From: a virus
Virus record (IMG/VR): IMGVR_UViG_3300045988_122072
Span: 64,001 to 128,000 of that record
Reading direction: 5' to 3' (one strand)
Length of the DNA: 64,000 nucleotides
This document shows, one piece after another, positions 32,400 to 33,040 of the stretch. Position 1 is the first letter of the stretch, and every line of letters begins with the position of its first letter. Under the pieces are notes generated by a model, which was not told the DNA's origin, ran no database searches, and worked only from the letters and a program-made list of their open reading frames with translations. A program made the translations under genes and the position numbers.

Positions 32400-33040
32400 G
32401 TGCTGGGCATCACCTTAAAGCTGCCCTAAGATATGCAGGTGTGTCGGAATTGGTATACGAAACAGACTCCGCTCATAGGTAAAAGCTATGAAGGTTGGGT
32501 CACTATTTTGGAAACGAAATAGTTAGTAAACTCCCTAATTCTTGGAACGCTAAGTCTTAATAAGATACGCCAATCAAGAGCTAAATGAACTAAGTTCTAA
32601 ATGTGTAGAGACTATAGAGGAGTTACCTAAACTTACATAAGTAAGCATGGTTATAAGATAGTCCAGACCACAAACACCAAATGGTGGCCATGAAAATGGT
32701 AGGGGTAAGTAAAATCTGTTGCCCGTAAGGGATTGAGGGATCGTGGCCCTTCACCTGCACCATGACCTTGGCAAGTCATTAAACTACCACATCCGCCTGA
32801 TGTGTGCCAGCGGTCTAAAAGTACGGTAAACATCCTTCAAGGGTAGGGGATAGGAAGACCTGAGTTTACAGGGGAGTTGAATCCAGCCACTTGGAGTGAG
32901 TCCTATAGCCCATGGTACTAAGGGACTATGCGTGAATGGATAAGGGATTATATCCAAACTCCTAAAAAGTACCTGAAACGCTAGGCAATTGTGAAATTCA
33001 AGCGTGTCCACTTTACTGGGCGTACCGTAAAAGCCGGATT
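32400..33040 (+). ncRNA. large structured non-coding RNA candidate A (about 0.65 kb; ROOL/GOLLD-like class suspected, unverified)
   Basis: No credible ORF or RBS. Hand-counted G+C about 50% in sampled lines, against 20-40% in coding flanks. Hairpins include 32502-08/32517-23, 32632-36/32641-45, 32762-66/32775-79, 32938-42/32951-55 and 32978-82/33001-05. Strand is assumed from context. Confidence 0.5.

What the first reader, a model, noticed from the sequence alone, without database searches (positions are those of the whole stretch)
32400..33040. About 0.65-kb G+C-enriched, ORF-free, hairpin-dense region: candidate very large structured RNA next to tRNAs
Seen: no RBS-preceded ORF is present, and the ORF-track hits here are short minus-strand artefacts. 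By hand count one 60-nt line (32701-60) is about 53% G+C, while a sampled coding line (3481-3540) is about 20%. Many local helices are listed in the feature entry. The region is followed 4 nt later by tRNA-Asp. Known: the exceptionally large ornate RNAs ROOL and GOLLD occur in Firmicutes prophages and phages and are characteristically adjacent to tRNA genes. Inference: this could be a member or relative of one of those classes, or an undescribed large RNA. I cannot recall their consensus sequences well enough to assign it.
Basis: partly seen in the sequence, partly recalled or inferred. Interest (0 to 1): 0.7.

Follow-up and report, generated by a model that had tools for sequence, protein, structure and literature searches.

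The report
Split tRNA plus new phage RNA
The flagged 0.65-kb stretch is not one giant RNA: it holds a phage leucine-tRNA gene split by a self-splicing group I intron, then a roughly 195-base, doubly knotted RNA from a family no database lists, carried in the tRNA clusters of large gut and rumen phages.

Summary
The region is G+C-enriched (43.8% against 35.9% for the window), has no real ORF, and ends 4 nt before tRNA-Asp.

The interpretation as a single very large ROOL/GOLLD-like RNA does not hold. The region contains three units on the + strand:
1. **tRNA-Leu(UAA), 32435-32762.** It is interrupted between U33 and U34 by a 241-nt group I intron (32469-32709). The Rfam Intron_gpI hit scores 41.9 bits (E 3e-9, below the gathering score of 50). 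The 5' splice site has a U.G wobble and the intron ends in omega-G. Removing the intron in silico gives an 87-nt type II tRNA-Leu with CCA, which aligns end to end with uninterrupted tRNA-Leu genes of related phages.
2. **"RNA X", 32793-32987.** It has no Rfam 15 match. I found 100 distinct homologs in phage and metagenome contigs from human gut, rumen and other samples. Its fold has eight helices, including two pseudoknots. 91.7% of pair cells are paired (at most 37.5% in register-shifted controls), and 27 of 41 pairs show compensatory changes. X always lies on the tRNA strand. It sometimes sits flush between two tRNAs. It is often near a Ro60-like gene (DUF2828/DUF7788) and RNA-repair-like genes, and in some relatives near ROOL or GOLLD-like RNAs.
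3. **A 55-nt leader of tRNA-Asp.**

The function of X is unknown. My best guess is a trans-acting, protein-binding RNA released by tRNA processing.

The parts
32387..32434 (+). Conserved 48-nt leader between the stop codon of the Ro60-like gene and tRNA-Leu. It holds a GGGCA/UGCCC hairpin and an RBS-like GGAG followed by a 10-codon mini-ORF. Function unassigned.
   Evidence: 85-94% identical in related loci L001-L013 (blastn). The hairpin appears in the MFE fold. The mini-ORF length is not conserved.
32435..32468 (+). tRNA-Leu(UAA) exon 1: acceptor 5' strand, D arm, anticodon stem 5' strand, and C32-U33.
   Evidence: Read by hand. After the intron is removed, ARAGORN calls an 87-nt tRNA-Leu(taa). 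It aligns with uninterrupted tRNA-Leu genes of relatives.
32469..32709 (+). Group I intron, 241 nt, no ORF. P1 pairs exon 32465-32468 plus C32469 with the internal guide GGGUC at 32497-32501, giving a U32468.G32498 wobble at the 5' splice site. P2 hairpin at 32502-32523. P3 5' strand from 32528. P7 strands near 32610-32615 and 32658-32663. Omega-G at 32709.
   Evidence: Rfam RF00028 at 32464-32687: 41.9 bits (gathering score 50), E 2.8e-9, full model 1-253, with P3-P8 aligned. MFE z = -3.48, with the anticodon stem closing the intron. 97.5-100% identical copies in L071 and L102. Related phage L007 has an ~870-nt group I intron with an HNH ORF in its tRNA-Leu at the same locus.
32710..32762 (+). 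tRNA-Leu(UAA) exon 2: U34-A35-A36 onward, long variable arm, T arm, acceptor 3' strand, discriminator A, and encoded CCA (32760-32762).
   Evidence: 85% identical to the annotated tRNA-Leu of Pseudomonas phage 201phi2-1. ARAGORN call on the spliced sequence. Alignment A5.
32763..32792 (+). tRNA-Leu trailer with a small hairpin (UGAC..GUCA). It runs into the recombination junction with the X cassette (shared UACCAC).
   Evidence: 32753-32790 matches the trailer of tRNA-Leu in L001, L010 and L013 at 92-97%. Homology with X-bearing loci starts near 32785.
32793..32987 (+). RNA X, an undescribed double-pseudoknot RNA.
- P1: 32793-96 / 32810-13
- PK2: 32799-803 / 32830-34
- P2: 32835-44 / 32886-96 (bulged A at 32889)
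- P3: 32848-51 / 32881-84, with an optional 18-nt insert hairpin at 32857-74
- Helix A: 32902-05 / 32982-85
- P4: 32906-13 / 32921-28
- PK1: 32914-18 / 32969-73
- Helix B: 32930-33 / 32978-81
- Variable P5: 32938-42 / 32951-55
- A-rich strands: 32815-21 and 32962-68
   Evidence: No Rfam match. 100 distinct full-length homologs at 76-197 bits with model R1. Pair counts and covariation. Coordinates.
32988..33044 (+). Spacer or leader of about 55 nt in front of tRNA-Asp. Function unassigned.
   Evidence: In L008, L009 and L011 the same sequence occurs twice: before tRNA-Asp, and after X. In L002, L019 and L026 homology to X stops before it. No sigma-70-like promoter or terminator was found here on the + strand.
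33045..33121 (+). tRNA-Asp(GUC), the next gene of the array (context only).
   Evidence: ARAGORN and Rfam.

Best explanation
The region is a stretch of a phage tRNA array, transcribed left to right, and it contains three units.

1. **tRNA-Leu(UAA) with a group I intron.** The anticodon loop is interrupted between U33 and U34 by a 241-nt group I intron. The intron should excise itself by the usual two transesterifications: guanosine attacks after the U.G pair in P1, then omega-G 32709 takes the G-binding site. This rejoins CU + UAAAA into a normal 7-nt loop.
2. **RNA X.** It is a ~195-nt compact RNA built from two similar modules. Each module is a hairpin whose loop pairs with a downstream strand that is preceded by an A-rich linker (an H-type pseudoknot). 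The modules are joined through a long bulged stem (P2/P3) and a three-way junction. X is a self-contained cassette that recombines among positions in tRNA arrays and RNA-repair gene islands of large phages. It is most likely cut out of the array transcript by the nucleases that mature the neighbouring tRNAs, and then acts in trans as a folded RNA that binds a protein. The Ro60-like DUF2828/DUF7788 protein and the RNA-repair enzymes are the leading candidates.
3. **A 55-nt leader of tRNA-Asp.**

Shown: the tRNA and intron anatomy, the X family, its fold, its strand and its genomic company. Inferred: self-splicing activity, release of X by tRNA processing, trans action, and the protein partner.
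For: **tRNA and intron**
- Rfam Intron_gpI: E 2.8e-9 with the P3-P8 core aligned.
- U.G wobble at the 5' splice site and a terminal G.
- Removing 32469-32709 gives an ARAGORN tRNA-Leu(taa) of 87 nt with CCA.
- Uninterrupted tRNA-Leu genes in relatives span the junction, with compensatory stem changes: L182 at 79.5% identity over all 87 nt.
- At the same locus, relatives carry tRNA-Leu(UAA) without an intron (L003, L006, L009) or with an ~870-nt group I intron plus an HNH ORF (L007).

**RNA X**
- 100 distinct full-length homologs, one per locus.
- 91.7% of 4057 pair cells are paired, against 27-38% for slid registers. 27 of 41 pairs have double changes. 0 of 500 shuffles reach the observed values.
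- PK1 was not part of the covariance model, yet it is 99.8% paired with three covarying pairs.
- PK2 pair 19:46 is G:C in 54 sequences and U:A in 44, with none unpaired.
- More than 190 G.U cells fix the strand as +.
- All tRNAs in X loci are on X's strand. In some loci X starts 1-3 nt after a tRNA 3' end, and/or ends 4-11 nt before the next tRNA.
- A DUF2828/DUF7788 gene lies on the same strand within the fetched DNA in 25 of 75 independently found X loci, in at least four gene orders. One order is X - methyltransferase - Pnkp-like kinase - unknown - DUF2828 with no tRNA nearby.
- The DUF2828 protein model's only Foldseek PDB hit below E 1e-3 is full-length D. radiodurans Ro/Rsr.
Against: - The intron scores below Rfam's gathering score (41.9 against 50), and ARAGORN in intron mode did not call the split gene.
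- No intron-less copy of exactly this tRNA allele was found. The intron-less neighbours are diverged alleles.
- The Foldseek match of the DUF2828 model to Ro/Rsr is weak: TM 0.37-0.39 on a model with mean pLDDT 71.5.
- X is not thermodynamically unusual (z = -0.15).
- Only 11 of 80 loci seeded with the Ro60-like gene have X within +-10 kb, so X is not an obligatory partner of that protein. The linkage could be indirect, through shared residence near tRNA arrays.
- The window already has two tRNA-like RNAs with anticodon-loop inserts directly upstream of the Ro60-like gene (30341-30591). They fit the Y-RNA role better than X.
- There are no expression or end-mapping data.
Confidence: 0.7

Rival explanations
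1. The whole 32400-33040 stretch is one very large ornate RNA, a member or relative of ROOL or GOLLD.
For: Phage context and tRNA adjacency. ROOL and GOLLD-like RNAs do occur in the same kind of loci in relatives: L105 and L127 ROOL at 274-280 bits, L037 GOLLD-like at 99 bits.
Against: There is no ROOL or GOLLD hit in the window at the gathering score, nor at E<=10 on the 671-nt stretch. The same tool finds both in related loci, which serves as a positive control. The stretch resolves into a complete tRNA with an intron and a separate cassette. The two halves occur independently and in different orders in relatives. Where ROOL is present it lies about 0.5-1 kb away from X.
Confidence: 0.02
2. 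X is a self-cleaving ribozyme of a new class that helps cut the array transcript. It would free the 3' end of the upstream tRNA or the 5' end of the downstream one, as HDV-like theta ribozymes do in gut phages.
For: Invariant nucleotides are concentrated in junction strands and two pseudoknots, an architecture typical of small ribozymes. In several loci X's P1 starts 1-3 nt after a tRNA 3' end. A theta/HDV-like match sits right after tRNA-Ile in this same array (33378-33434, 33.5 bits). For precedent see PMC10879173.
Against: No match to any self-cleaving ribozyme family in Rfam. Most copies are 50-900 nt from the nearest tRNA on both sides, and some loci have no tRNA nearby at all. Flanking nucleotides are not conserved. 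At ~195 nt it is large for a processing ribozyme.
Confidence: 0.12
3. X is specifically the RNA subunit of the phage Ro60-like (DUF2828/DUF7788) particle, a functional analog of Y RNA. It would gate or tether the ring protein within an RNA-repair or RNA-decay module.
For: Same-strand linkage to the Ro60-like gene in several gene orders and at 41-100% protein identity. Linkage to a Pnkp-like kinase and a methyltransferase. The fold match of the protein to Rsr. A long stem with an invariant bulged A (P2), the sort of site Ro60 reads on Y RNAs (PMC12135203 for Ro60 recognition of a bulged helix). Phage Ro60 with phage-encoded Y-like RNAs is established (PMC12135203).
Against: X is absent within +-10 kb of 69 of 80 Ro60-like genes. 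There is no YrlA hit on X. X has no tRNA-like domain and no terminal stem formed by its 5' and 3' ends. The window has better Y-RNA candidates upstream of the gene.
Confidence: 0.2
4. X is a cis-acting sensor (a riboswitch-like aptamer or leader) that controls read-through into the downstream tRNAs or the RNA-repair operon.
For: The compact pseudoknotted core with invariant junctions resembles aptamers. In some loci X lies upstream of the methyltransferase-kinase-DUF2828 genes on the same strand.
Against: There is no conserved downstream gene. The distance to the next ORF is 460-850 nt or more. No terminator or RBS-sequestering element follows X. X is often flush between two tRNAs, and sometimes downstream of the Ro60-like gene, as in the window.
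Confidence: 0.07
5. The second half encodes a small protein on the minus strand (75-aa ORF at 32784-33011), and the conservation is protein-level.
For: An ORF of 75 aa exists there.
Against: Homologs differ by indels of 5, 17 and about 40 nt in P5 and elsewhere, which break any frame. Substitutions are compensatory across helices and pseudoknots. All genes and tRNAs of the neighbourhood are on the + strand.
Confidence: 0.01

Closest known systems
[quoted passage not shown]
   Same: A small ORF-less group I intron in the anticodon loop of tRNA-Leu(UAA). U.G wobble at the 5' splice site, terminal G, P3-P8 core recognised by RF00028, anticodon stem holding the exons together.
   Different: It is inserted one nucleotide earlier (CU/c...g/UAAAA, between positions 33 and 34, which would be 'Leu.2Ug') instead of CUU/a...g/AAAA. 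It is carried by a large Firmicutes-type phage. It scores below Rfam's gathering score. I could not tell whether Leu.2Ug is among the 17 extra types of that paper, because its table is an image.
ROOL (RF03087) and GOLLD (RF02032) RNAs
   Same: Structured non-coding RNAs of phages and prophages that sit next to tRNA genes and have unknown biochemical function. They occur in the same loci as X in some relatives.
   Different: X is ~195 nt rather than ~580 or ~800 nt. It has no sequence or structure match to either model, and it is a separate unit where they co-occur.
Y RNAs / YrlA (RF02553) with Ro60 (Rsr), including phage Ro60 with Yrl1 and Yrl2 (PMC4201824, PMC12135203)
   Same: A non-coding RNA encoded on the same strand near a Ro60-like ring + vWA protein gene and RNA-repair genes. 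It has a long stem with a conserved bulge.
   Different: No tRNA-like domain, no terminal Ro-binding stem and no YrlA hit. X has two pseudoknots. It is present at only 11 of 80 Ro60-like loci.
HDV-like theta ribozymes of gut phages (PMC10879173)
   Same: Structured RNAs embedded in tRNA arrays of gut phages, some directly abutting a tRNA 3' end.
   Different: Theta ribozymes are ~55-70 nt with the HDV nested double pseudoknot. X is three times larger, has a different topology (two separate H-type pseudoknots), and is usually not flush with a tRNA.

Membership tests
ROOL RNA (RF03087) | Covariance-model score at or above the gathering score (99.1 bits) over the ~574-position model | tested here: not met
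   No hit in the window at the gathering score, nor at E<=10 on 32380-33050. Positive control: 274-280 bits in L105 and L127.
GOLLD RNA (RF02032) | Covariance-model match to the conserved half (gathering score 150 bits) | tested here: not met
   No hit at E<=10. Control: 99.1 bits, E 3.5e-25, in related locus L037.
OLE, RNase P RNA, tmRNA, group II intron, known self-cleaving ribozymes, known riboswitches (Rfam 15) | Any covariance-model match at E<=10 on the + strand of 32763-33044 | tested here: not met
   The only + strand hits in the region are Intron_gpI and a weak LOOT match inside the intron. ARAGORN finds no tmRNA.
Group I intron (RF00028) | Conserved catalytic core P3-P8, including the P7 pairing | tested here: inconclusive
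   Full-length model alignment at 41.9 bits, E 2.8e-9, with P3, P4-P6, P7 and P8 aligned. The score is below the curated gathering score of 50.
Group I intron (RF00028) | U at -1 forming a U.G wobble in P1 with an internal guide sequence | tested here: met
   GACU|C (32465-32469) pairs with GGGUC (32497-32501), giving U32468.G32498.
Group I intron (RF00028) | Omega-G as the last intron nucleotide, and excision that restores a functional exon product | tested here: met
   G32709 is the last intron nucleotide. In-silico excision gives a 7-nt loop CUUAAAA and an ARAGORN tRNA-Leu(taa). Uninterrupted homologs span the junction.
Group I intron (RF00028) | Guanosine-dependent self-splicing | not testable with these tools
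   Needs in-vitro transcription and a splicing assay.
Bacterial type II tRNA-Leu | Cloverleaf with long variable arm, Leu anticodon, 7-bp acceptor stem, discriminator A | tested here: met
   ARAGORN drawing of the spliced sequence. 85% identity of exon 2 to an annotated phage tRNA-Leu. The T loop AUCGUGG is atypical but is shared with L182.
Y RNA / YrlA (RF02553) | tRNA-like module plus a terminal Ro-binding stem; covariance-model match | tested here: not met
   No YrlA hit on X. The X fold has neither feature. Weak YrlA hits fall elsewhere (30418-30526 at 26 bits; L144 and L139).
RNA X (family defined here) | Helices P1-P5, A and B plus pseudoknots PK1 and PK2, with invariant GCGUGAA ... AAAAG-NNN-CUGAAACGC | tested here: met
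   The window copy scores 174.1 bits with model R1, though it was one of the seed sequences. 68 further non-seed sequences score 76-190 bits. For pair support.

The most novel reading that the evidence does not exclude
X is the catalytic or scaffolding RNA of a phage tRNA-maintenance system. It would be either a new ribozyme class acting on the array's tRNAs, many of which in related phages carry 40-90-nt tRNA-like inserts in their anticodon loops, or the RNA subunit of the Ro60-like / Pnkp-like kinase / methyltransferase repair particle. That would be a new kind of RNA-protein machine that phages use to keep translation running against host tRNA-targeting defences.
Probability: 0.15. Interest if true: 0.85.

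Novelty: categorically new. Interest (0 to 1): 0.58.

Why it matters
Two points.

1. **The split tRNA.** A phage-borne tRNA-Leu(UAA) is split by a group I intron at position 33/34, and related phages have intron-less and endonuclease-bearing versions at the same locus. This is a clean natural series for intron mobility in tRNA genes. It also shows that standard tRNA finders miss such genes: ARAGORN and Rfam's tRNA model both missed this one.

2. **RNA X.** It is a well-supported, previously uncatalogued structured RNA class. It has 100 distinct sequences and two covarying pseudoknots. I found it convincingly only in uncultivated phage and metagenome contigs (human gut, rumen and others). It lives in the same "RNA islands" that hold tRNAs, ROOL, GOLLD, theta ribozymes, Y-like RNAs, a Ro60-like protein and RNA-repair enzymes. 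These islands are thought to protect phage translation from host attack on tRNAs. A new conserved RNA there is a concrete handle for experiments, and it is small enough (~195 nt) for biochemistry and structure work.

The label 'categorically new' applies to X only, and only at the level of RNA family. The intron-containing tRNA is a new member of a known kind. X may also be hidden, unnamed, in bulk catalogues of candidate viral RNAs (PMC10690425), which I could not search.

Tried and rejected
- **Hammerhead:** CUGAUG...GAAAC in X looked hammerhead-like. The covariation-supported helices do not form a hammerhead junction, and A9 is missing.
- **RNase P RNA:** ACGGUAAAC...CAAGG...UAGGGG resembles E. 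coli M1 RNA by eye. X has no P4-type long-range helix and there is no Rfam hit.
- **Cobalamin and TPP riboswitch look-alike strings:** these occur only in one subgroup, with no Rfam hit.
- **X as an intron-containing tRNA:** no acceptor pairing of the two ends.
- **Early hand-drawn hairpins in X** (UGCC-AGC-GGCA; GGAGU/ACUCC; a closing GCCU/AGGC stem): replaced once diverged homologs showed P1 = CCGC/GCGG and helix A = CCUA/UAGG. The 2-bp 'CA/UG' extension of P2 shows no covariation and conflicts with PK2, so I dropped it.
- **An '880-nt intron' in L005 and L012:** this was a misreading. Those loci have an uninterrupted diverged tRNA-Leu(UAA).
- **'NCCA + 3 nt' before X as a conserved feature:** it is not universal. 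In the window it is the tRNA-Leu trailer and a recombination junction.
- **Two collection scans were wasted** on a pattern with one N too many. The corrected pattern worked.
- **Pattern hits in GC-rich contigs** (L068, a Sulfotelmatobacter MAG contig; L101, a 389-kb contig; L110; L095) score only ~13.5 bits with the model (E ~0.2). I do not count them as members.
- **blastn of the region against 50,697 GenBank phage records** found only the tRNA-Leu exon. megablast of 24 kb of the window found nothing.
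Full report
**1. Context**

The window is part of a large phage genome. Almost all long ORFs are on the + strand. They include a DnaE/PolC-type polymerase 38-45% identical to those of a human-faecal phage and of Geobacillus and Bacillus phages, plus RecJ, DnaB, NAD-ligase, ribonucleotide reductase and a tail protein. 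Close relatives are 150-170-kb IMG/VR contigs. The flagged stretch lies between the stop codon (32386) of a 529-aa DUF2828/DUF7788 protein (PHROG 850 'RNA-binding protein') and tRNA-Asp at 33045. tRNA-Asp is the first ARAGORN-called gene of an array that also holds Asn, Ile(UAU), Gln, Gly and Lys.

**2. Observation**

Only short ORFs overlap the region. Folding energy of the whole stretch is unremarkable (z = -1.76). 'Hairpin-dense' is therefore not in itself more than chance.

**3. First half: a split tRNA-Leu**

- At the gathering score Rfam finds only tRNAs. At E-value thresholds it finds Intron_gpI at 32464-32687, with 41.9 bits, E 2.8e-9 and the full model aligned through P3-P8.
- Reading the flanks shows a tRNA 5' half at 32435-32468 that ends in the anticodon stem ACAGA plus C-U. 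A 3' half at 32710-32762 begins UAAAA-UCUGU and ends CACCUGC-A-CCA.
- The last exon nucleotide, U32468, forms a U.G wobble within P1 (GACUC/GGGUC). The last intron nucleotide is G32709.
- Deleting 32469-32709 makes ARAGORN call an 87-nt type II tRNA-Leu(UAA). ARAGORN in intron mode had missed it.
- Exon 2 is 85% identical to the annotated tRNA-Leu of Pseudomonas phage 201phi2-1.
- The spliced sequence aligns end to end with uninterrupted tRNA-Leu genes of related phages, with compensatory changes in the acceptor and anticodon stems and the same unusual T loop in L182.
- At the same locus, relatives carry one of three versions: an intron-less tRNA-Leu(UAA) (L003, L006, L009); the gene with a 47-nt insert; or an ~870-nt insert that contains a group I core (35.4 bits) and a 181-aa HNH ORF (L007).
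- The intron with its closing anticodon stem folds far better than shuffles (z = -3.48).
- In the nomenclature of Williams (10.1101/2020.01.27.920355) the classical tRNA-Leu intron is CUU/a...g/AAAA (Leu.3Ug). This one is CU/c...g/UAAAA, one position earlier.

I conclude that this half is a new member of a known kind. Self-splicing itself is inferred.

**4. Second half: RNA X**

*Separate cassette.* blastn against 15 related loci showed that 32785-33044 behaves as a separate cassette found at different places in their tRNA arrays.

*Family size and range.* Pattern scans of IMG/VR and of metagenome contigs, followed by nhmmer and a covariance model (R1), gave 134 loci and 100 distinct full-length sequences, one copy per locus, at 76-197 bits. 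The contigs include human gut and rumen assemblies, and some are 150-200 kb long. X was not found by blastn in 50,697 GenBank phage records. Among 185,579 species-representative genomes there was only one non-significant pattern hit.

*Extent.* More diverged members delimit X to P1...GGCA, which is 32793-32987 in the window.

*Fold.* I derived the fold by hand from compensatory changes and then tested it.
- On a MAFFT alignment of 32 sequences, 93.6% of pair cells are paired, against at most 36.6% in shifted registers. 21 pairs have double changes.
- On the 100-sequence model alignment, 91.7% are paired against at most 37.5%. 27 of 41 pairs have double changes, and 0 of 500 shuffles reach the observed values.
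- Pseudoknot PK1 (P4 loop GGUAC with GUACC) was not in the model, yet it is 99.8% paired. Its variants are GGUAC/GUACC, GAUAC/GUAUC and GGCUC/GAGCC.
- A second pseudoknot, PK2 (P1 loop GAUGU with ACAUC just before P2), has a perfectly covarying pair: G:C in 54 sequences and U:A in 44.
- Each pseudoknot's 3' strand is preceded by an invariant A-rich strand (UAAAA / UAAAAAG).
- P2 carries an invariant bulged A. P5 is a variable-length hairpin. The window and a few relatives have an extra 18-nt hairpin in the P3 loop.
- Abundant G.U pairs fix the strand as +.
- Folding energy alone would not have flagged X (z = -0.15).

**5. What X is not**

X has no Rfam 15 family match at E<=10. The same tool finds ROOL and a GOLLD-like RNA in related loci, which serves as a control. 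By-eye resemblances to hammerhead, RNase P, cobalamin and TPP elements did not survive the covariation-supported fold.

**6. Company that X keeps**

- Every tRNA in X-bearing loci is on X's strand.
- In some loci X sits flush between tRNAs. For example, in L102 tRNA-Gln...CCA is followed by UAA and then X, and X is followed by 11 nt and then tRNA-Glu. In others it is tens to hundreds of nucleotides from the nearest tRNA, or in loci without tRNAs.
- In the loci without tRNAs, X lies upstream of a conserved same-strand gene set: a class I methyltransferase, a P-loop kinase most similar to the kinase domain of bacterial Pnkp, one or two unknown proteins, and a DUF2828/DUF7788 protein.
- A DUF2828 gene is present in 25 of 75 X loci that were found without reference to it, and in 13 of 30 with at least 2 kb of flank on both sides. 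It is always on the same strand, in at least four gene orders, at 41-100% protein identity.
- An AlphaFold model of the window protein (mean pLDDT 71.5) has one Foldseek PDB hit below E 1e-3: D. radiodurans Ro/Rsr, aligned over 508 columns. The TM-score is only 0.37-0.39. Published work describes Ro/TROVE proteins with tRNA-like RNA partners in RNA-repair contexts of large phages (PMC7824862) and a phage Ro60 with two upstream Y-like RNAs (PMC12135203).
- The reverse test is weaker. Only 11 of 80 loci seeded with the Ro60-like gene contain X within +-10 kb.
- The window has two tRNA-like RNAs with inserts immediately upstream of the gene, and these look like the Y-RNA equivalents.

The linkage is therefore real but facultative, and part of it may come from both elements living next to tRNA arrays.

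**7. Mechanism**

- *Shown:* the anatomy of the tRNA and intron; the X family, its fold and strand; its cassette-like mobility; its linkage to tRNA arrays and to Ro60-like/RNA-repair genes.
- *Inferred:* the array is transcribed as a precursor, since no sigma-70-like promoter or terminator lies inside it on the + strand, while two perfect consensus promoters lie upstream at 29831 and 30248. The intron self-splices. X is released when RNase P and the 3'-end nucleases mature the flanking tRNAs. X then works in trans as a folded, probably protein-bound RNA.
- *Rivals, with my confidence:* Ro60-like partner 0.2; self-cleaving processing ribozyme 0.12; cis-acting sensor 0.07; single giant RNA 0.02; minus-strand protein 0.01.

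**8. Third unit**

32988-33044 is a ~55-nt leader of tRNA-Asp. In L008, L009 and L011 it occurs both before tRNA-Asp and after X. It is absent after X in L002, L019 and L026. I assign it no function.

**9. Verdict**

One half is a new member of a known kind. The other half is an RNA family without a known relative. Interest is moderate to high (0.58). Structured orphan RNAs in phage tRNA arrays are a known phenomenon. But this one is unusually well supported by covariation, small enough to study, and sits in a gene neighbourhood that suggests tRNA maintenance or RNA repair.

Noticed in passing
window 30341-30466 and 30473-30591 (+), with the promoter at 30248-30275 and the gene at 30797-32386: Two tRNA-like genes with 52- and 38-nt insertions in the anticodon loop (Rfam tRNA 48.7 and 42.6 bits; weak YrlA hit of 26 bits). 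They sit directly after a perfect TTGACA-16-TGnTATAAT promoter and directly before the Ro60-like DUF2828/DUF7788 gene. This is the layout of a phage Ro60 gene with two upstream Y-like RNAs (compare PMC12135203).
   Followed up: partly
relatives L001, L002, L004, L008, L010, L011, L013 at about 7645-7780, and many other tRNAs in loci L001-L243: The tRNA-Leu(UAA) of these relatives has a 47-nt insert at CUU/.../AAAA, too short for a group I intron. Many other tRNAs in these phage arrays carry 38-86-nt anticodon-loop inserts. Several inserts look like mini-tRNAs: an acceptor-like stem, a T-arm-like hairpin such as GUAGG-GGCAGCA-CCUAC or a canonical GUUCGAGUC loop, and an ending ...CACCA. This suggests inserts that tRNA-processing enzymes could excise and an RNA ligase reseal. 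I know of no description of this. Some ARAGORN calls in this set are false positives that span two adjacent tRNAs.
   Followed up: partly
window 33378-33434 (+): A sub-threshold match to the HDV-like ribozyme of F. prausnitzii (33.5 bits, gathering score 44, E 0.002). It starts at the 3' end of tRNA-Ile(UAU) (33284-33379), which is where theta ribozymes of gut phages sit.
   Followed up: no
window 33284-33379 (+): tRNA-Ile(UAU) is 96 nt long with a very long variable arm, which is unusual for an Ile tRNA. The same gene recurs in relatives.
   Followed up: no
window 33435-33885, 33960-34280, 34356-34766 (+): Further ORF-poor, G+C-enriched gaps between tRNAs. 33517-33776 is 82% identical to a stretch of L002 and contains tRNA-like pieces (for example an acceptor-like UCCUCU...AGAGGA with a GGUUCGAUUCC T arm) that no tool called. 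There is a weak 'drum' RNA hit at 33959-34080 (20 bits).
   Followed up: no
L105 71-643, L127 1668-2248, L037 2082-2539 (-), L066 802-925: Full ROOL RNAs (274-280 bits) lie 0.5-1 kb upstream of X in two loci. A GOLLD-like RNA (99 bits, below the gathering score of 150) and a DUF3800-I RNA (55.6 bits, above its gathering score) occur in other X-bearing arrays. Several orphan RNAs share these islands.
   Followed up: partly
L105 2152-6237, L139 3056-6541, L061 1303-4813 and similar loci: A conserved operon-like set downstream of X: class I methyltransferase, Pnkp-like P-loop kinase, one or two unknown proteins (213 and 130 aa), and the Ro60-like DUF2828/DUF7788 protein. It resembles an RNA-repair module.
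   Followed up: partly
window 28655-29824 (+): A 389-aa protein with an adenylosuccinate-synthetase domain (E 1.4e-29). In phages such proteins can be PurZ, which makes 2-aminoadenine DNA. Not examined.
   Followed up: no
relatives L003 8203-8279, L004 8212-8288, L019: tRNAs with anticodon CUA (amber suppressors, called 'Pyl' by ARAGORN) occur in related arrays. This suggests stop-codon recoding in part of this phage group. The window itself shows none.
   Followed up: no
L007 7745-8290; window 10762-12207: An HNH endonuclease ORF inside the group I intron of L007's tRNA-Leu. The window also has a 481-aa HNH/homing-endonuclease-like ORF elsewhere, so mobile endonucleases are active in this lineage.
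   Followed up: partly
L068 4880-5026, L101 3265-3411, L110 6340-6486, L095 6711-6963: GC-rich contigs (one binned as Candidatus Sulfotelmatobacter, one a 389-kb contig) keep the GCGUGAA...AAAAG-NNN-CUGAAAYGC strings of X, but score only ~13.5 bits with the model. They may be very distant relatives or chance matches.
   Followed up: partly
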